Below, in pieces: positions 92 to 8,737 of a stretch of DNA of 12,524 nt. The notes under the pieces are model-generated. The model did not search any database. It was given only the letters and a program-made list of their open reading frames with translations, and was not told where the DNA came from. The position numbers and the translations under genes are program-made. The stretch is from contig CAYRFY010000184.1 in NCBI GenBank assembly GCA_964423635.1, positions 1-12,524 of the forward strand, read 5' to 3'. This DNA is from an uncultured Armatimonadia bacterium (GTDB lineage Bacteria > Armatimonadota > Zipacnadia > Zipacnadales > JABUFB01). How positions within the stretch are numbered: position 1 is the first letter of the stretch; each line of letters begins with the position of its first letter.

Positions 92-439
92 CTACCCTCC
101 GTGCATCCGCGTCTGGTCCTCGCGCCTGTCTTCCCGGTGGCGCATCTCCTCGCTCGGCCCTGCCACGACCGCCGCCGTGCCGCCTGCCCTCAGCCTGCCG
201 TCCATCGCGTCCAGGCGTCGCTCGATGCTATTGAGCCGCTCGAGGATGGCGGTCAGATGGGCGGAGAGCAGGTGGGTGTCGCACGAGAGCAGGTCGTCTT
301 CCAGTTGTCGCGCGGCGTTCCGCTGCTGCAACTCCTCCATGCGCCCCAGATGCCTCTGGTGGTTGCGCAGTGCCAGCCCAACGCAGGCACCGATGGCTAC
401 CATCATCATCGGAAGCAACATCACGAAGGCATCATCCAT
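92..439 (-). CDS. Small single-pass membrane protein, paralogue 1. It has an N-terminal TM helix (FVMLLPMMMVAIGACVGLAL) followed by a coiled coil (RMEELQQRN...HLTAILERLNSIERRLDAMDGRL). PspB-like in architecture, tentative.
   Basis: The ORF track frame 92..481 was trimmed to an internal ATG at 437-439 (complement), which is preceded by a strong Shine-Dalgarno GGAGGTGA (complement of 445..452) with a 5-nt spacer. Starting at MDDAFVML aligns it with the N-terminus of the neighbouring paralogue. A hydrophobic helix followed by an amphipathic helix matches the PspB layout (TM, then a His/aromatic residue, then a coiled coil). The stop TAG is at 92-94. Confidence 0.6.
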   Translation of the reverse strand: MDDAFVMLLPMMMVAIGACVGLALRNHQRHLGRMEELQQRNAARQLEDDLLSCDTHLLSAHLTAILERLNSIERRLDAMDGRLRAGGTAAVVAGPSEEMRHREDRREDQTRMHGG

Positions 440-444
440 GCACG

Positions 445-452
445 TCACCTCC
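445..452 (-). promoter_or_regulatory. Shine-Dalgarno (GGAGGTGA) for the small membrane protein gene at 92..439.
   Basis: The reverse complement of tcacctcc sits 5 nt upstream of the ATG. Confidence 0.5.
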
Positions 453-477
453 GCACCCTGACGCGGGCCCACCGTGC

Positions 478-825
478 TCAATGCTGCTGGGTCTGCCTCT
501 CCCGCCTGTCCGTCCGCTCGAAGAGCTCATCGCTCCGGCCGGTCGACGTCGTGGCGGCGCATCCCTGCCTCCCGTTACCGTCAGTCTCGCTGAGGCGCTG
601 CTCGATGCTGTTGAGCCGTTCCAGGATCGCGGCGAGGTGCGCCGACTGCAGGTCGCCGTCGTAGCCGAGCAGCGCACGGTCGCTCTCGGCCGCCCGGTCC
701 AGGTTCCGCTGGCGCAACTCTTCCATCCGCTCGCAGTGCCGTGTCCAGTGGCGGAAGGCGGCGAACCCGAGCACCCCGACGATCGCCACGATCGGTATCA
801 TGACGCCAATCACGTCGACAGCCAT
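478..825 (-). CDS. Small single-pass membrane protein, paralogue 2 (MAVDVIGVMIPIVAIVGVLGFAAF, then RMEELRQRN...HLAAILERLNSIEQRLSETDG). PspB-like in architecture, tentative.
   Basis: ATG start at 823-825 (complement) with an upstream GGAGAGGA-like SD. The stop TGA is at 478-480. The protein shares the core MEEL(Q/R)QRN ... L(L/Q)SAHL(T/A)AILERLNSIE(R/Q)RL with the gene at 92..439. The DNA of the two cores is also clearly related, for example ctcgatgctattgagccgctcgaggatggcgg versus ctcgatgctgttgagccgttccaggatcgcgg. Confidence 0.65.
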   Translation of the reverse strand: MAVDVIGVMIPIVAIVGVLGFAAFRHWTRHCERMEELRQRNLDRAAESDRALLGYDGDLQSAHLAAILERLNSIEQRLSETDGNGRQGCAATTSTGRSDELFERTDRRERQTQQH

Positions 826-881
826 ATGCCCGTCCTCTCCGCCCTCCGGGGCCGGTTATGTCGCGCTTGCCCCGCGCCAAC

Positions 882-1826
882 TCACGTGGCGCGAGACCAC
901 ACGTCTTTGTCGGTGAAGATCCGCCGGAGCGTGGTGAGTTCCCCGTGGTCGAGCCAGATGCCCTCGCAGATCCGGCAGCGGTCCACATAGCAGCTACCGT
1001 CTTCGGCATACGCGCGGCTGTCCATCTCGGTGTGGTCTACCGGACAGACGATCTCTCCCTCGCGGTCGGTATCCGGCATGCGAATCGCGGAGCTGAGTTG
1101 TCGCTCCCAGGCGTTGAGCCATTGCTGGGAGACGTCCATGAGCAGCGACAGCGCTCCGGTATCCATCCAGATGCCGCCGCAGGTGCTGCAGTGGTCCACG
1201 GCGGGGTCCTCGTCCAACGCTATGCCACATCCGGAGGCGGTTCGCGAGCTCAGGGGATTGTCGCAGCGCGGGCAGAGCATGGCTCCCCGCCGGTCCTGCA
1301 GGACGGCACCGCAGCCCCAGCAGGTGGGCGCCCCCACGTAGTTCTCCACACCACAATCCTGGCACGGGAACTTCTGGATCAAAGAGACCACGTGCCGCAG
1401 GCGCCGGCGACGGGAGGTCGGTAGCGTGGGTGTCGACGCCTCGGGCTGCGCTCCGGTGGCGGCGGGCCTCGCCGGGGTGAACCTGGCGGCGAGTGCCGCC
1501 AGCTCCCCGTCATCCACCCAGATACCCTTGCACTGCGGGCACGCGTCGAGCTTGATCTCCGGGGAGTGGGGGTACGAGAACTCGTACAGGGCCACGCCGC
1601 AGCGCGGGCAAGATGCATCTTCCCGCGCCGCCGGGGCCCCGGCAGGGCCGGGGACATACTCGGCCTCGGCCGACCCGGAGCCCGAGCCGCCGGAGCGGAT
1701 CACCTGCCTGAGTTCGTCGGCGTCGAACCAGATGCCCCCGCAGGCGTCGCAGCCGTCCAGTGCGACGGCGCCGATCCTCTCCTGTCGCAGGGGCACGCCC
1801 TCACCGCAGCGTGGGCAGTTGGCCAC
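882..1826 (-). CDS. Cys-rich tandem zinc-ribbon protein. It has four repeats of CPxC-x(12-20)-CxxCxGIWxDxxEL (zf-TFIIB-like, PF13453-type ribbon) plus a central CQDCG...CWGCG ribbon. No TM segment, so predicted cytoplasmic.
   Basis: GTG start at 1824-1826 (complement) with a GAGGGA SD about 8 nt upstream. The stop TGA is at 882-884. The four repeats read CPRCGEGV...CDACGGIWFDADEL, CPRCGVAL...CPQCKGIWVDDGEL, CPRCDNPL...CSTCGGIWMDTGAL and CPVDHTEM...CRICEGIWLDHGEL. Composition and codon bias are consistent with a coding region. Confidence 0.8.
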   Translation of the reverse strand: MANCPRCGEGVPLRQERIGAVALDGCDACGGIWFDADELRQVIRSGGSGSGSAEAEYVPGPAGAPAAREDASCPRCGVALYEFSYPHSPEIKLDACPQCKGIWVDDGELAALAARFTPARPAATGAQPEASTPTLPTSRRRRLRHVVSLIQKFPCQDCGVENYVGAPTCWGCGAVLQDRRGAMLCPRCDNPLSSRTASGCGIALDEDPAVDHCSTCGGIWMDTGALSLLMDVSQQWLNAWERQLSSAIRMPDTDREGEIVCPVDHTEMDSRAYAEDGSCYVDRCRICEGIWLDHGELTTLRRIFTDKDVWSRAT

Positions 1827-1889: not shown

Positions 1890-4778
1890 CTATCGCCGGC
1901 GCAGCACGAACACGCACCCCGACTCGATGTTCGGCACCTTCAGGATCGCCCGGCCCGCTTCCACCGTGCAGGCGAAGGGCTGCTCGCCCTCCGGGGTGAC
2001 CTCGAAGCATTCCACATCCTCAATGTAGTCCGGCAGCCCCACGGTGATCGAGACGTTCTTGGCCGGCTCGATCTCCGGCGGCTCCGGCTTGGAGGCCGGA
2101 ATGTGGTTGGCGGCGGTGACGACGATCGTGTCCGGTCCGCACAGCAGGCTGCTCACGGCCACCCGCGGCTTGGGCCAGGACTCATCACGGGCGACGCCCG
2201 TGGGCACCTCCCCGGCGTCGCAGGAGACCAAGTCCACCGGCGTGCCCAGGAGCAGATCGCCCTCGATGTGCTCGATCAGACGGTTGGTGGCGGCGATCTC
2301 GGCCGCAAACTCATCATTGAGCTGCCAGCCACCGGCGCCCGCCGAGTACACCCAGCTCGTCAGCCCCTTCATCCCACAGCCGATGGCCTGGACCACATTC
2401 TGCCGCCATTCGGCCGGCACCGGTCCCCGCGCACCCTTCGGCACTCCCTGACCGGTCTTCCAGCCGTACGCCTCCAGACAGGCGTACATGCGGTTCGGCG
2501 TGCCGCACAGCCGGGCGTAGGACAGGCTCTCACGCACGTAGGCGTGGTCGGCGCCGTAGTACGTCACGGGATACGGGTCGAAGCAGGCGATGTCGGCGAA
2601 GCGCCCGTATACGCACCAGTTCAGCGGTCGCACCGTGCCGTTCATCACGATCCACGAGGCGGCCTGCGGGGAGAACCGCTGCAGCAGCTCCTGCCAGCCG
2701 GACTGCGCCAGCCTCCGGGCATGGTAGCCCAGCCCTGTCGGGTAGCCACCGCCACGATTGTCGTGGGCGTCGGGCTCGTCGGGCCCCATCAGATACGCCA
2801 CCCGCGGGTGGAGGTCGAACATGCCGCCGGTGGCGCTGGTCAAAAGCCCGTACCGCTCGCAGACCTCCTGGGAGTGTGCGTGCCACATGGCCAGGTTCAT
2901 GTGCATCTGCTCGCACAGCTCGGGGGGCACGTGGATCGAGCTGCGCGGGAACAGCCAGGGCAGGACGCGGAACTGCGCCGCCACCTGCCTCCCGGAGCCG
3001 CTGGTGGCCGTCACCACATGGTACCCACCCGCCGTCAGCGGCGCCTCAAGTCTTGCCACGAGCAGCGCCACCCCGCCGGGGAAGTCGGCCCCGTAGCGAC
3101 GGACCTGCCTCAGCGGCTCGCCGTCCAGAGACAGTGCCTCGGCCGCCCGTATGCCCGGGGCATGCTGCCGCAGGTACACAAGCAGCGATTGCCCGTCCGG
3201 GCCGGTGGTCACATAGTCCACGGAGAGCTCCGCGGAGGCGTACGGAACGGTGGCCTCCGTCCTCGCGCCGCTTTCGGTCACCAGCGTCACTCGGGCCGCC
3301 TCGCCCTCCGGCCGGCGCCGGAAGCGCACCAGCACCTGGCCGCACTCCCCGGCCTCCAGCGTCCGCGGCCGCACTCGGTACCACACCACGCCCCGCGCGT
3401 CCCAGGCGTCGGAGACCAGATCCACATAGGTCTCATCAACCGGGACATCATTGAGCAGGAGGTCGGCGATGCGCACCGTCTGGGTCCCCGTATTTCGGAC
3501 GGCCAGGCGCAGAGAGCCGAAGTCCTCGTGCTCCTGATACAGCCGCTGCAGGCCCGCGAAGACGAGGCCCGTATCCTGCCCCTTCTGGCGGCCCTCCACG
3601 ACTTGCGACGCCGCCGGTGGGGCCGGGTCGGGCAGGTACTCGGCGGCCAGGACGGTGAGCTCCCGGCCGGGAGCCAGGTCCGGGCGCTCGGTCCAGGAGA
3701 TGTCGCCGCCGCCGGACAGCGCCACCGTCCGCAGGAGCAGTCTGCCCCCGCTCCGGGGCGCCACGCGCAGCTCGTGCACGCCGTCGGCGGGAGCCCTGCC
3801 TAGCTCTGAGAAGACGGTGCCACGGCGCTCGATGCCGGAGGCGGCGTCGAACGAAAGCACCTCCTCACCATCCCACAGCACCGCGCACTCTCGCGGCGAT
3901 TGCGGGTCGGATGAGAACTCCAACCGCACCATCAGCGGCCCCGACGCGCCCTGGGTCCGCACGAAGGTGGCAAGCGACAGGGGTGCCTGGCCCTCGCTGA
4001 GGTACTCCCTGCTCAGCGGGAACCCGCCGGTCTCGTTCAGTACCAACAGCGGGTTCTCGCCGGGGGGCGTGAGCCAGCCGTCGGCCTGCTCATAGTAGTG
4101 AGGGGCGCGCGCCCGTGGAGGGTCGGAGCAATCCAGCGCCGGGCTTCGCCAGCCCTGTGCGGAACGCAGTTGCGCCCATTGCGCCTTCAGCTCCGATTGC
4201 GGGTCCGCGGCCGCGAATAGCGCCTCGCCCGTCTGCAGCTCTACCCGCAGCTCATCGACGATGTTCGATACATACGTCTCCAGGCCGCTGTAGTTGTCCA
4301 ACACCAGGCGCAGCCATAGCTCACCGCCCCCCAACAGGCCCCCGGCCCGCTCCGTCTCCAGGGTCAGCGGCCCCGCCTGCCAGCCGTTGGCGTCGCCCTC
4401 CTGGCCCTTGCTGTCGGCCACCTGCTCCCAGTCCAGACCGTTGGCCGAGGCCCACAGCGTCGTCTGGCCGCCCAGGTGGCGGGCATTTGACCGCTGCGCG
4501 ACCCGTACGGACACTGCGGTGATCGCTCGCTCGCCGTGGAAGCGGTAAGTCAGCGTCCGGCGGCGGGCCGGGCCCTGTGTCTGCAGCGAGCCCGCCGTCC
4601 AGATTTCAGTCCCCGTATTGCTGAGGATCGCGTCGGTGAGGCATCTAGGGGTGGAGAAGTCGTCCTCGTAGACAAAGCTCCCCTCCTCATCGGGCCGGAT
4701 AGCGATGCCCGGCTCTGCGGCATGGCTGACCGGACTGAGCAGAAGCAGAAGAAGACCGACGGCCTGGCTTGCTCTCAT
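1890..4778 (-). CDS. Large secreted multidomain protein of about 962 aa with an N-terminal Sec signal peptide. The function is unresolved. Its C-terminal third is possibly a glycoside-hydrolase-like TIM-barrel region, and it has beta-sandwich-like N-terminal and C-terminal domains.
   Basis: The track ORF 1890..4883 was trimmed to an internal ATG at 4776-4778 (complement) that begins a classic signal peptide, MRASQAVGLLLLLLSPVSHA|AEP. The 35 codons upstream are Arg/Gly-rich and not protein-like. The stop TAG is at 1890-1892. Third-position GC bias is strong. The overlapping 745-aa plus-strand ORF is an antisense artefact. Confidence 0.8.
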   Translation of the reverse strand: MRASQAVGLLLLLLSPVSHAAEPGIAIRPDEEGSFVYEDDFSTPRCLTDAILSNTGTEIWTAGSLQTQGPARRRTLTYRFHGERAITAVSVRVAQRSNARHLGGQTTLWASANGLDWEQVADSKGQEGDANGWQAGPLTLETERAGGLLGGGELWLRLVLDNYSGLETYVSNIVDELRVELQTGEALFAAADPQSELKAQWAQLRSAQGWRSPALDCSDPPRARAPHYYEQADGWLTPPGENPLLVLNETGGFPLSREYLSEGQAPLSLATFVRTQGASGPLMVRLEFSSDPQSPRECAVLWDGEEVLSFDAASGIERRGTVFSELGRAPADGVHELRVAPRSGGRLLLRTVALSGGGDISWTERPDLAPGRELTVLAAEYLPDPAPPAASQVVEGRQKGQDTGLVFAGLQRLYQEHEDFGSLRLAVRNTGTQTVRIADLLLNDVPVDETYVDLVSDAWDARGVVWYRVRPRTLEAGECGQVLVRFRRRPEGEAARVTLVTESGARTEATVPYASAELSVDYVTTGPDGQSLLVYLRQHAPGIRAAEALSLDGEPLRQVRRYGADFPGGVALLVARLEAPLTAGGYHVVTATSGSGRQVAAQFRVLPWLFPRSSIHVPPELCEQMHMNLAMWHAHSQEVCERYGLLTSATGGMFDLHPRVAYLMGPDEPDAHDNRGGGYPTGLGYHARRLAQSGWQELLQRFSPQAASWIVMNGTVRPLNWCVYGRFADIACFDPYPVTYYGADHAYVRESLSYARLCGTPNRMYACLEAYGWKTGQGVPKGARGPVPAEWRQNVVQAIGCGMKGLTSWVYSAGAGGWQLNDEFAAEIAATNRLIEHIEGDLLLGTPVDLVSCDAGEVPTGVARDESWPKPRVAVSSLLCGPDTIVVTAANHIPASKPEPPEIEPAKNVSITVGLPDYIEDVECFEVTPEGEQPFACTVEAGRAILKVPNIESGCVFVLRRR
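4719..4778 (-). other. Signal peptide (about 20 aa, AXA-type cleavage after SHA) of the secreted protein.
   Basis: Basic N-terminus MRASQ, then a poly-Leu hydrophobic core, then SPVSHA-AEP. Confidence 0.6.
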
Positions 4779-7230: not shown

Positions 7231-7821
7231 ATGCGAATGGATCGACTCAGGCGCCTGTGGCGTGCGCTGCTGCGGTTTCTCACCGGAGAGGATGAGCCGG
7301 TTGCCGTTCGCCCCGAGGCCGCCGAGCGCGAACTCAGCGCTCTGCGGAACATCGCCGCGCTAGCCGTGGCCCAGGCTCAGCGCGCCGAACTGGAGTTGCG
7401 CGAAGCGTTGGCCGACCCCTCAACGATGCCGGGCGAACTGGACAGTCTGATGCTCCAGCTCACGGAGCTGCGCGACCGCGCGCGCCGGGACGTCGTGGCC
7501 TACAGAGAGCATCAGCGCGGCGTGGCCGAGGCCCTGGAGCGTCTGGGGGAGGCGACCCGCGCCGCCGAGGTCGGTCGTCAGCGCGAGGAGATGCGGCGTT
7601 TCCTGGCCCGGTCTGAAGCGGCCATGGATCTCGAAGCTCTCCAGGCCATCGAGGACGAAGCCAGAGCCGAAGCCGCGCGCCTCGATTTCCTGCAGCAATT
7701 GGAGGCCGGTCACGATCCCGGAATCCACCGTCCCGAGCCCCGGGAACCCGGTGACCTCAGGCAGAGGGCACAGGCCCTCGTGGACCAGAGCGCCTTTTCT
7801 GACCTGCTGGGAAATGACTGA
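7231..7821 (+). CDS. PspA/IM30 (Vipp1)-like coiled-coil protein of about 196 aa. Family assignment is tentative.
   Basis: The N-terminus MRMDRLRRLWRALLRFLTGEDEP matches the PspA N-terminal amphipathic-helix pattern DRLxRxxRAxLxxLxxxAEDP as I recall it. The rest is an uninterrupted Ala/Glu/Arg/Leu-rich alpha-helical coiled coil. The track ORF began at a TTG at 7147, but I placed the start at the first ATG (7231). The ATG at 7237 is an alternative, since GGGGA lies at 7225-7229. The stop TGA is at 7819-7821. Confidence 0.6.
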   Translation: MRMDRLRRLWRALLRFLTGEDEPVAVRPEAAERELSALRNIAALAVAQAQRAELELREALADPSTMPGELDSLMLQLTELRDRARRDVVAYREHQRGVAEALERLGEATRAAEVGRQREEMRRFLARSEAAMDLEALQAIEDEARAEAARLDFLQQLEAGHDPGIHRPEPREPGDLRQRAQALVDQSAFSDLLGND

Positions 7822-7939
7822 ACGCCTCACGCCCGGACACACGGTCCGGTTCGGAAGCCGTGGCTAACGTTTGGCACGCGACGATCTACATAGCTGTTGG
7901 GACCCCGCTACTGACGGACGCGAAAGGGGGCTCTCTAGT

Positions 7940-8737
7940 ATGGACCTCTTGGCATGGTGGAACGTCGTCTTCGTCGTCCCCATCGGCCTGTCGGTGCTCT
8001 ACCTGATACTCAGCGCCACCGGCATGGGCGGCGACACCGGGCACGACCATGATCTCGAGACCCAGATGGACCACGACGTGGACCTCACCCATGATGTGGA
8101 CATGGACCACGACGTAGACATCGACCACGACGTGGACATGGATCATGACGTGGACGTCGACCACGACGTGGAGACGCTGCATGGCGTCGACGCGCACCAC
8201 ACGGTGGCCGCGGGCGATGCCCACGACTCGCTGGCTCATGACTTCCACCATGAGGCCGACACTCCCCTGTGGCTCCGGGCCCTGTCGGTGATCGGGTTCG
8301 GCAAGGTGCCGGTGTCGATCATCATGACGTGCCTCAGCGTCATCTTCGGTGTCGTCGGGCTGGCGGCCAACAGTCTCTTCGAGCACGGCCTGAGCGGGAA
8401 GCTGCCGCCCACGGTGTACTTCTGGCCCTCCTTCGCGCTGGCCGCCGTGGTCTCGCTGTCTTTCACCGGGAGCTTCGCTCGCCTGATGGCCCGCTACATG
8501 CCCACCAGCGAGACCTATGCCGAGACGCCCCAGGACTTGGTGGGGCGGCTGGGAACCGTGGTCTTCGCCCTGAGGGAGGGCGAGAAGGGTGTCGTGGACG
8601 TGAAGGATCACGGTGGCACCTGGCACCGTATTGCCGCTCAGCCTGTGTCCGGCGACATTCCCAAGGAGAGTGAGGTCATCGTGGTTCGTTACCACCGCGA
8701 CGGCGACTATTACGATGTGACGGTGTCGCCACTGTAG
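7940..8737 (+). CDS. NfeD-like (YqiJ/YuaF-type) membrane protein with three predicted TM helices and a C-terminal OB-fold beta-barrel. It carries an unusual His/Asp-rich repetitive loop between TM1 and TM2.
   Basis: The C-terminal sequence LVGRLGTVVFALREGEKGVVDVKDHGGTWHRIAAQP...EVIVVRYHRDGDYYDVTV fits the NfeD C-terminal OB-fold signature. The hydrophobic helices are LLAWWNVVFVVPIGLSVLYLILSA, LSVIGFGKVPVSIIMTCLSVIFGVVGLAA and FWPSFALAAVVSLSFTGSF. The ATG at 7940 is preceded by AAAGGGGG. The track's TTG at 7871 adds a non-protein-like leader. The stop TAG is at 8735-8737. The gene lies immediately upstream of a flotillin gene, which is the classic NfeD-SPFH pairing. Confidence 0.8.
   Translation: MDLLAWWNVVFVVPIGLSVLYLILSATGMGGDTGHDHDLETQMDHDVDLTHDVDMDHDVDIDHDVDMDHDVDVDHDVETLHGVDAHHTVAAGDAHDSLAHDFHHEADTPLWLRALSVIGFGKVPVSIIMTCLSVIFGVVGLAANSLFEHGLSGKLPPTVYFWPSFALAAVVSLSFTGSFARLMARYMPTSETYAETPQDLVGRLGTVVFALREGEKGVVDVKDHGGTWHRIAAQPVSGDIPKESEVIVVRYHRDGDYYDVTVSPL
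8065..8172 (+). repeat. Six copies of an 18-bp in-frame tandem repeat (consensus atggaccacgacgtggac) encoding (M/L/I/V)(D/T)HDVD x6 inside the NfeD-like gene.
   Basis: Read directly: atggaccacgacgtggac / ctcacccatgatgtggac / atggaccacgacgtagac / atcgaccacgacgtggac / atggatcatgacgtggac / gtcgaccacgacgtggag. Confidence 0.9.

What the first reader, a model, noticed from the sequence alone, without database searches (positions are those of the whole stretch)
92..1826. Tandemly duplicated PspB-like single-pass peptides directly downstream of a four-times zinc-ribbon Cys-rich protein
Two paralogous genes of about 115 aa each (478..825 and 92..439) sit 38 nt apart. They share the TM helix and the RMEEL(Q/R)QRN ... 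HL(T/A)AILERLNSIE(R/Q)RL coiled-coil core. Their N-termini and their charged C-terminal tails have diverged. They immediately follow, on the same strand with a 56-nt gap, a soluble protein made almost entirely of zinc ribbons, with about 24 Cys in 314 aa. The combination suggests a membrane-tethered signalling or anti-sigma-like module, or a redox- or zinc-sensing module. In it the ribbon protein could dock onto the cytoplasmic coiled coils of the two peptides. This sits in the same neighbourhood as a PspA-like gene. The architecture is reminiscent of PspB/PspC-type regulators of PspA, but none of the three proteins is a canonical family member.
Basis: partly seen in the sequence, partly recalled or inferred. 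Interest (0 to 1): 0.7.

Follow-up and report, generated by a model that had tools for sequence, protein, structure and literature searches.

The report
Two small membrane zipper genes beside zinc-ribbon gene
Two duplicated small membrane-protein genes and a neighbouring multi-zinc-ribbon gene are all real, but they sit together only in one narrow group of Armatimonadota bacteria, so the proposed three-protein signalling module is not supported.

Summary
On the minus strand lie sp2 (92..439) and sp1 (478..825), each 115 aa and 50% identical, then a 314-aa protein (882..1826) with four PF13453 zinc ribbons and one RanBP2-like finger. It has 21 Cys, not about 24. All three genes are under purifying selection.

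sp1 and sp2 belong to a small family absent from Pfam and NCBIfam. About 25 clusters of 103-139 aa turned up among 1.84 billion representatives. Each has an N-out transmembrane helix with an IPIVAI.G motif, an H.ER motif, and a short leucine zipper with conserved Arg/Glu pairs at positions typical of a parallel dimer. The tail is disordered. No member matches PspB.

About 20 distinct loci carry full-length ribbon homologues (31-50% identity), and none has an sp gene nearby. Six loci with more distant sp homologues show no ribbon gene nearby. The adjacency is seen only in the window's strain and one sister species; a third related lineage has the sp pair, but its contig ends before any ribbon gene. 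In the sister species sp2 carries a 1-nt frameshift, identical in eight assemblies.

The "PspA-like" neighbour has no PspA match.

Most likely reading: sp1/sp2 are a lineage-specific duplicate of an uncharacterised dimeric membrane protein, placed next to an independently distributed cytoplasmic zinc-ribbon protein. Interest is low to moderate.

The parts
92..439 (-). sp2: 115-aa single-pass membrane protein, paralogue of sp1
   Evidence: ORF, with a GGAGGTGA ribosome-binding site 5 nt before the ATG. 50% identical to sp1. An intact orthologue, P0127, lies in L070; dN/dS is 0.32. Frameshifted in the sister species.
368..427 (-). sp2 transmembrane helix (residues 5-24, FVMLLPMMMVAIGACVGLAL)
   Evidence: Hydrophobicity maximum of 2.39. 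Acidic N-terminus and a basic stretch after the helix, which implies N-out/C-in (inference).
200..265 (-). sp2 heptad-repeat (zipper) helix, residues 59-80
   Evidence: Aligns with the sp1 zipper.
440..477 (-). 38-nt sp1-sp2 intergenic spacer carrying the sp2 ribosome-binding site
   Evidence: Sequence. No terminator-like site.
478..825 (-). sp1: 115-aa single-pass membrane protein; founding member of the family described here
   Evidence: ORF. Homologues. dN/dS 0.37. AF2 model gives helix 2-55, a break, helix 59-83 and a disordered tail.
754..813 (-). sp1 transmembrane helix (residues 5-24), with family motif IPIVAI.G (P11 invariant)
   Evidence: Alignment A4. Hydrophobicity 2.64. pLDDT of 90-94 in this block.
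577..645 (-). sp1 zipper helix, residues 61-83 (SAHLAAILERLNSIEQRLSETDG)
   Evidence: Positions 64, 67, 71, 74 and 78 are hydrophobic in all 25 family members, and position 81 in 92%. R70 and E75 are invariant, R77 is nearly invariant, and position 82 is acidic in 24 of 25.
826..881 (-). 56-nt ribbon-sp1 spacer with the sp1 ribosome-binding site; probably co-transcribed
   Evidence: Sequence. 5 mismatches to the sister species in the 56 nt. No terminator-like site.
882..1826 (-). Ribbon protein: 314-aa soluble cytoplasmic protein with four PF13453 zinc ribbons and a central RanBP2-like finger
   Evidence: Pfam hit at E 5.5e-37 in 4 stretches. Family alignment A3. AF2 pLDDT 80. Nearest solved structure is ZifS, 8YOZ.
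1695..1820 (-). Zinc ribbon 1 (residues 3-44; C4, C7, C26, C29) plus the following helix
1482..1613 (-). Zinc ribbon 2 (residues 72-115; C73, C76, C96, C99)
1299..1370 (-). RanBP2/NZF-like small zinc finger (residues 153-176; C155, C158, C169, C172)
   Evidence: DZR hit. Foldseek matches to NZF and RanBP2 fingers at probability 0.5-0.6.
1137..1277 (-). Zinc ribbon 3 (residues 184-230; C185, C188, C213, C216)
912..1049 (-). Zinc ribbon 4 (residues 260-305; C261, C284, C287). The second ligand Cys is replaced by Asp-His (CPVDH).
   Evidence: The same substitution is present in the sister species.

Best explanation
The region holds three real, probably co-transcribed genes that do not form a conserved module.

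sp1 and sp2 are tandem paralogues of a small protein family that is not in Pfam or NCBIfam. It has so far been traced to Armatimonadota genomes and to unassigned metagenome contigs. Each protein has a short acidic N-terminus outside the cell and one transmembrane helix carrying a conserved IPIVAI.G motif. A basic H.ER(M/L)E juxtamembrane helix follows, then a Gly-rich hinge, a heptad zipper of about 2.5 heptads, and a disordered charged tail.

The invariant polar residues sit at heptad g and e positions: R70 with E75, and R77 with D/E82. That is the arrangement of inter-helix salt bridges in a parallel dimeric coiled coil. The proteins therefore most likely work as membrane-anchored homodimers, or as sp1/sp2 heterodimers. 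Function probably resides in the conserved transmembrane and juxtamembrane segment, for example contact with another membrane protein.

The upstream gene encodes a soluble cytoplasmic scaffold with five predicted zinc sites. It belongs to a family typical of Armatimonadota, and the genomic context of that family varies freely.

The ribbon-sp1-sp2 order arose recently in one genus-level lineage. sp2 is a partly redundant copy that has already been inactivated by a frameshift in the sister species.

Shown: gene reality, paralogy, family membership, distribution, lack of synteny, the frameshift. Inferred: topology, dimerisation, cytoplasmic location, co-transcription, and any biochemical role.
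For: Paralogy at 50% identity, E 6e-29.

Purifying selection on all three genes.

The exhaustive profile search found 33 hits at E<=1e-3, of which about 25 are proteins of 103-139 aa with the same layout.

No hit for sp1 or sp2 reaches a curated cut-off in Pfam, and there are none in NCBIfam, PADLOC or PHROGs.

The AF2 model gives helix 2-55, a break, helix 59-83 and a disordered tail.

Heptad positions are 92-100% hydrophobic, and the charged residues at g/e positions are invariant or nearly so.

The ribbon protein shows 4 PF13453 stretches, 21 Cys and 9 CxxC motifs. Its family alignment keeps all ligand Cys.

Among loci with full-length ribbon homologues, an sp gene occurs only in the window strain and the sister species.

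sp homologues sit in other contexts: before a GH2-CBM60 gene, before a FlgD_ig gene, or beside URO-D and DUF6785 genes.

The sp2 frameshift is identical in 8 independent assemblies.

Homologues of the flotillin, NfeD, HK and 962-aa neighbours occur only in loci of the same clade.
Against: Within the clade the three genes are tightly spaced on one strand with no terminator-like site. The ribbon-sp1 spacer is conserved between the two species for which it can be read. A lineage-specific functional link therefore cannot be excluded.

Contexts for distant sp homologues come mostly from short contigs of 2-4 kb. Two could not be read as DNA, so a ribbon gene a few kb away would be missed.

No multimer prediction or expression data were available.

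The function proposed for the sp family is an inference from sequence features alone.
Confidence: 0.62

Rival explanations
1. The ribbon protein docks on the cytoplasmic coiled coils of sp1/sp2. Together they form a membrane-tethered signalling, anti-sigma-like, or zinc/redox-sensing module.
For: Same strand, with 56-nt and 38-nt gaps and no terminator-like site. The ribbon-sp order is kept in the window strain and the sister species; a third lineage, L070, keeps the sp pair but its contig ends before any ribbon gene. PF13453 domains are elsewhere fused to membrane proteins such as rhomboid proteases and a scramblase-like protein, so the domain can act at membranes.
Against: About 20 distinct loci with full-length ribbon homologues lack sp genes. 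None of 6 distant sp loci shows a ribbon gene in the flanks available. sp2 is frameshifted in the sister species. The window has no sigma factor, DNA-binding regulator or zf-HC2 domain. The conserved polar residues of the zipper are explained by self-association.
Confidence: 0.15
2. sp1/sp2 are remote PspB-type envelope-stress adaptors. They work with the nearby coiled-coil / NfeD (YqiJ-like) / flotillin operon, by analogy with E. coli PspBC-PspA or B. subtilis PspA-YdjGHI.
For: The size class, N-out/C-in single-pass topology and cytoplasmic zipper match PspB (the PspB features are from my own knowledge). An NfeD/YqiJ_N gene and a Band_7 flotillin gene lie 6-8 kb away, preceded by a 194-aa helical protein. 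In B. subtilis a zinc-ribbon membrane protein (YdjG), an NfeD-like protein and an SPFH protein recruit PspA to the membrane (PMC8581546, PMC9239133).
Against: No PF06667 hit in any of 25 family members at E<=10. hhalign gives 41% probability, over the transmembrane helix only. The 194-aa protein has no PspA_IM30 hit at E<=10. No PspC is present. The flotillin operon is on the opposite strand, beyond the HK and 962-aa genes. No Band_7 or NfeD homologue was found next to sp homologues outside the clade.
Confidence: 0.1
3. The small ORFs are chance ORFs in GC-rich DNA and do not encode proteins.
For: High-GC DNA (68%) yields many long spurious ORFs in all frames. No curated family matches.
Against: dN/dS is 0.32-0.37 with dS of 0.22-0.70. 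GC3 is 0.84-0.90. Both genes have good ribosome-binding sites. About 25 divergent family clusters share the same architecture and invariant residues.
Confidence: 0.01

Closest known systems
PspB (phage shock protein B, PF06667)
   Same: A small single-pass inner-membrane protein with N-out/C-in topology and a cytoplasmic leucine-zipper-like helix. The PspB features are from my own knowledge.
   Different: No HMM match in any family member. hhalign gives 41% probability over the transmembrane helix only. sp proteins are longer (103-139 aa against 74 aa) and carry a disordered charged tail. No PspA, PspC or PspF partner genes are present.
ZifS (TTHA0897, Thermus thermophilus; PDB 8YOZ) and other PF13453 'Zn_ribbon_TFIIB' proteins
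   Same: Each of the four ribbons has the CPxC...C..CxGxW.D..EL ribbon-plus-helix unit. Ribbon 2 aligns to ZifS at E 2.7e-5. Foldseek gives probability 0.99 and rmsd 1.5 A over 48 columns.
   Different: ZifS has a single domain and is about 80 aa. This protein strings four such units plus a RanBP2-like finger into 314 aa. That architecture was seen mainly in Armatimonadota. The fourth ribbon has lost one ligand Cys. No functional literature on ZifS was found in the held library.
B. subtilis PspA-YdjG-YdjH-YdjI (SamGHI) membrane-stress module
   Same: A zinc-ribbon protein, an NfeD-like protein and an SPFH/flotillin protein occur in one neighbourhood, together with a helical protein in the PspA position (PMC8581546, PMC9239133).
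   Different: Here the ribbon protein is soluble and has no transmembrane segment. It lies on the opposite strand about 5 kb from the flotillin operon. It carries PF13453 domains, whereas YdjG is reported with TF_Zn_Ribbon. The helical protein has no PspA HMM hit. The linkage is not seen in other ribbon loci.

Membership tests
PspB (PF06667) | Significant match to the PspB profile | tested here: not met
   hmmscan found no PF06667 hit for sp1 or sp2 at E<=0.1, nor for any of the 25 family members at E<=10.
PspB (PF06667) | Profile-sequence similarity to E. coli PspB beyond the transmembrane helix | tested here: inconclusive
   hhalign of A4 against PspB gave probability 40.7% over 42 columns covering only the transmembrane and juxtamembrane region.
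PspB (PF06667) | Single-pass N-out/C-in topology with a cytoplasmic zipper helix | tested here: met
   AF2 helices and charge distribution. This shows analogy, not homology.
PspB (PF06667) | Genomic partnership with pspA, pspC or pspF | tested here: not met
   None of the 8 window proteins has a PspA_IM30 or PspC hit.
Zn_ribbon_TFIIB (PF13453) | Profile match above the gathering score | tested here: met
   125.3 bits against a cut-off of 22, E 5.5e-37, in 4 stretches.
Zn_ribbon_TFIIB (PF13453) | Four Cys zinc ligands (CxxC...CxxC) per domain | tested here: met
   Ribbons 1-3 are complete. Ribbon 4 has C261, C284 and C287 but D264/H265 in place of the second Cys.
Zn_ribbon_TFIIB (PF13453) | Ribbon-plus-helix fold as in the solved structure 8YOZ | tested here: met
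   Foldseek probability 0.99, rmsd 1.5 A. Sequence E-value 2.7e-5.
Zinc-binding anti-sigma factors (ZAS, zf-HC2) | HxxxCxxC anti-sigma domain and an adjacent ECF sigma gene | tested here: not met
   No zf-HC2 or sigma-70 family hit among the window proteins. No such gene was called in L001-L007.
PspA-YdjGHI-type SPFH stress module | PspA (PF04012), a zinc-ribbon membrane protein, an NfeD-like protein and an SPFH protein in one operon | tested here: not met
   YqiJ_N/NfeD and Band_7 are present. There is no PspA hit, and the ribbon protein is soluble, on the opposite strand and about 5 kb away.
New sp family (this report) | 103-139 aa; N-terminal transmembrane helix with IPIVAI.G; H.ER motif; SAHL.AIL.RL..IE.RL zipper; disordered tail | tested here: met
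   Both sp1 and sp2 match the family profile, at E 4e-46 and 2.8e-34. Alignment A4.

The most novel reading that the evidence does not exclude
The sp family could be an Armatimonadota-specific functional analogue of PspB: a dimeric membrane anchor that senses bilayer or envelope state through its conserved transmembrane and juxtamembrane segment. In this genus the duplicated pair would have been co-opted to tether the five-zinc ribbon protein to the membrane. That would create a lineage-specific metal- or redox-responsive envelope signalling unit next to the hybrid histidine kinase and the flotillin operon.
Probability: 0.1. Interest if true: 0.55.

Novelty: new member of a known kind. Interest (0 to 1): 0.25.

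Why it matters
The work defines a small membrane-protein family that is absent from Pfam and NCBIfam. It gives the family a clear architecture and testable dimerisation residues. It also documents an Armatimonadota-typical protein built from four PF13453 ribbons.

The result is a caution about method. Tight operon-like adjacency in a single window looked like a module, yet it dissolves once about 20 related loci are compared.

If the lineage-specific link were real, it would give a first functional handle on the bacterial PF13453 domain, for which I found no functional literature. On present evidence the locus is an ordinary juxtaposition of two uncharacterised genes and a decaying duplicate.

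Tried and rejected
- Pfam, NCBIfam, PADLOC and PHROGs scans of sp1, sp2, the 962-aa protein and the 194-aa coiled-coil protein gave nothing above threshold.
- A PDB sequence search with the sp profile returned only chance coiled-coil hits at E>=0.04.
- Foldseek of the sp1 model against PDB gave 0 matches.
- The Rfam scan of the window gave 0 matches.
- The promoter and terminator scan was at background level.
- The metagenome scan with A4 failed because no stretch was conserved enough. The retry with A5 found only 2 loci.
- Literature searches for 8YOZ, zf-TFIIB, PF13453 and TTHA0897 found nothing. The 'ZifS' search returned only metal-organic-framework papers.
- The afdb50 fold library was unavailable.
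- Gene conversion between sp1 and sp2 was considered and rejected, because synonymous differences run through the conserved core.
- Assembly error as the cause of the sp2 frameshift was rejected, because the sequence is identical in 8 assemblies from JGI, ENA, NCBI and Logan.
Full report
**Observation.** The window is 68% G+C. It matches a metagenome-assembled contig, GCA_025563055.1, at 99-99.7% identity. The nearest named relative is an uncultured Armatimonadia bacterium.

The minus strand carries, in transcription order:
- a hybrid histidine kinase (5150..~6811);
- a 962/997-aa secreted protein with no Pfam domain (1890..4778/4883);
- the ribbon gene (882..1826);
- sp1 (478..825);
- sp2 (92..439).

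The gaps between the last four genes are 63, 56 and 38 nt. Both small genes have Shine-Dalgarno-like sequences. sp1 and sp2 are each 115 aa and 50% identical, E 6e-29. The ribbon protein has four PF13453 stretches (E 5.5e-37) plus a DZR hit. It has 21 Cys in nine CxxC motifs plus three single Cys.

**Are the genes real?** Yes. Against the sister species (L004), dN/dS is 0.37 for sp1 and 0.20 for the ribbon gene. For sp2 it is 0.32 against a third lineage (L070). dS ranges from 0.18 to 0.70. GC3 is 0.84-0.90. The shared sp1/sp2 core differs at many synonymous sites, so it is kept by selection on the protein and not by gene conversion.

**The sp family.** The word-indexed search found only 5 relatives. 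An exhaustive HMMER profile search of 1.84 billion cluster representatives found 33 hits at E<=1e-3 and 17 at E<=1e-10. About 25 of these are proteins of 103-139 aa with one layout:
- a short acidic N-terminus;
- a transmembrane helix with (M/L)IPIVAI.G, in which P11 is invariant;
- an H.E(R/K)(M/L)E motif;
- an RQAE.DRELLG(L)G hinge;
- an SAHL.AIL.RL..IE.RL helix;
- a low-complexity tail ending in a charged patch.

A few hits of 53-59 aa consist of the transmembrane helix plus the H.ER part only.

No member reaches any Pfam threshold. The commonest sub-threshold hits are FixS, DUF16 and DUF7310, which reflect the transmembrane helix or generic coiled coil. PspB never appears. NCBIfam, PADLOC and PHROGs give nothing.

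AlphaFold2 with the family alignment gives helix 2-55, a break at 56-58, helix 59-83 and a disordered tail, with mean pLDDT 71. Foldseek finds nothing in PDB.

In the second helix, positions 64, 67, 71, 74 and 78 are hydrophobic in all 25 sequences, and position 81 in 92%. Their spacing is 3-4-3-4-3. The invariant or near-invariant polar residues are R70, E75, R77 and D/E82, which fall at heptad g, e, g and e positions. Pairs at g(i) and e'(i+5) are the classic inter-helix salt bridges of parallel dimeric coiled coils; that is established coiled-coil knowledge. I infer that the conserved core serves self-association rather than a partner-binding surface. The charge distribution (acidic before the transmembrane helix, basic after it) implies N-out/C-in topology, which is also an inference.

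**The ribbon family.** Full-length homologues of 280-326 aa and 31-50% identity keep every ligand Cys. In named genomes they come overwhelmingly from Armatimonadota: Chthonomonadales, Fimbriimonadaceae, Abditibacteriales and 'Zipacnadia'. One- and two-domain versions of about 175 aa are widespread, and some PF13453 domains are fused to rhomboid proteases.

The AF2 model has pLDDT 80 and pTM 0.59, with four ribbon-plus-helix units and a small central finger. The only meaningful structural match is ZifS (TTHA0897, PDB 8YOZ). The central finger resembles NZF/RanBP2 fingers weakly. Ribbon 4 of the window protein and of its sister species has CPVDH where about 90% of the family have CPxC.

**Test of the module hypothesis.** I scanned six-frame ORFs of every fetched locus with HMMs of both families. 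I also inspected the flanks of the full-length ribbon loci.

An sp gene lies next to the ribbon gene only in the window strain (window, L001) and in one sister species whose ribbon protein is about 92% identical (L002-L007, L013, L069).

About 20 other distinct ribbon loci, most with at least 1 kb of downstream flank, have unrelated neighbours. These include BipA and an MR_MLE enzyme, HypD, an oxidoreductase, and a prepilin-type protein.

The converse also holds. Lineage E, represented by P0005 (68% identical to sp1), has a single copy on L071. No ribbon gene lies in the 200 nt upstream, and a different convergent gene follows. More distant members are found in four settings:
- before a GH2-CBM60 gene and divergent from a PMT_2 glycosyltransferase (L068);
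- before a FlgD_ig-domain secreted protein (L072);
- beside URO-D-family genes on three contigs (those of P0131, P0142 and L073);
- one of those contigs (P0131) also has a DUF6785 membrane-protein gene, and L073 has an uncharacterised multi-pass membrane protein instead.

L070 shows the tandem sp1-sp2 pair, with sp2 intact, in a third close lineage. Its contig starts inside sp1, so nothing is known about what lies upstream. The duplication therefore predates these three lineages.

In the sister species sp2 has a 1-nt deletion at the end of the transmembrane segment. The deletion is identical in eight independent assemblies, so sp2 is dispensable there.

Homologues of the flotillin, NfeD, coiled-coil, HK and 962-aa neighbours are likewise confined to the same clade among the fetched loci. 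The whole neighbourhood is therefore lineage-specific.

**The PspA/PspB angle.** The 194-aa helical protein at 7237..7821, just upstream of the YqiJ_N/NfeD and Band_7 genes, has no PspA_IM30 hit even at E<=10. It has no PDB sequence relative either.

The arrangement recalls B. subtilis pspA-ydjGHI. There a zinc-ribbon membrane protein, an NfeD-like protein and an SPFH protein recruit PspA to the membrane (PMC8581546, PMC9239133). Here, however, the ribbon protein has no membrane segment, lies on the other strand about 5 kb away, and carries a different ribbon family. hhalign of the sp family against E. coli PspB gives 41% probability over the transmembrane helix only.

sp1 and sp2 are members of an uncharacterised family of small, probably dimeric, single-pass membrane proteins. 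The ribbon protein is a multi-domain member of PF13453. Their adjacency is recent and confined to one narrow lineage, and one sp copy is already decaying in a sister species.

A lineage-specific functional link cannot be excluded, because the spacing is tight and no terminator-like site is present. Comparative evidence gives it no support. I estimate it at about 15%.

The finding is of modest interest: a new small-protein family with a clear, testable architecture, but no novel system.

Noticed in passing
L004:10380-10733 (also L002, L003, L005-L007, L013, L069); orthologous to window 92..439: In the sister species sp2 has a 1-nt deletion at the end of the transmembrane segment. It splits the gene into an out-of-frame product that keeps the transmembrane helix and an 84-aa ORF (P0129) encoding only the soluble zipper and tail. 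The sequence is identical in 8 independent assemblies. The downstream part still shows dN/dS of 0.54.
   Followed up: yes
window 8069..8200 (within the YqiJ_N/NfeD gene, 7871..8737): An 18-nt tandem repeat with 5.8 copies encodes a His/Asp-rich (D-H-D-V-D)n stretch between the N-terminal membrane segment and the rest of the NfeD-like protein. It looks like a metal-binding loop. Protein length differs between close relatives (288/277 aa against 259 aa), which suggests variation in repeat number.
   Followed up: partly
window 7237..7821 (+): A 194-aa all-helical protein sits directly upstream of the NfeD-like and flotillin genes, in the position PspA occupies in B. subtilis pspA-ydjGHI. It has no PspA_IM30 hit or any other family hit. 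No structure prediction was run for it.
   Followed up: partly
window 1890..4778 (-): A 962-aa protein with a signal peptide has no Pfam, NCBIfam, PADLOC or PHROG match. It is under strong purifying selection (dN/dS 0.15, 92% identical in the sister species). It lies immediately upstream of the ribbon gene with a 63-nt gap, so it may be the first gene of the same transcript.
   Followed up: partly
window 1032..1046 (ribbon residues 261-265): The fourth zinc ribbon reads CPVDH where about 90% of family members have CPxC. The second ligand Cys is lost and a His follows, which may act as a substitute ligand. The sister species has the same change.
   Followed up: partly
L073:2-403 and 851-2041; JGI 3300075153 contigs of P0131 and P0142: More distant sp homologues repeatedly sit beside URO-D-family (uroporphyrinogen-decarboxylase-like) genes. 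On the P0131 contig a large multi-pass membrane protein annotated DUF6785/DUF6784 also follows. This may be a conserved context in another sub-lineage.
   Followed up: partly
window 478..825 compared with L001:11002-11349: Between the window and the near-identical NCBI contig, sp1 carries 5 substitutions, with 4 amino-acid differences. The adjacent ribbon gene, nearly three times longer, has 2 and sp2 has 1. The numbers are small, but sp1 looks relatively fast-evolving at strain level.
   Followed up: partly
P0139 (sp family member, JGI): One family member is annotated by its source as 'tetrahydromethanopterin S-methyltransferase subunit G'. This is probably a spurious transfer from weak similarity of the transmembrane helix and coiled coil; MtrG hits in the family scan reach only E of about 0.1.
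   Followed up: partly
L074:2604-2915: The gene that overlaps the stop codon of a 50%-identical ribbon homologue encodes a protein with a prepilin-type N-terminal methylation motif (GFTLIELLVVIAII). This is one example of the variable neighbours of the ribbon family.
   Followed up: no
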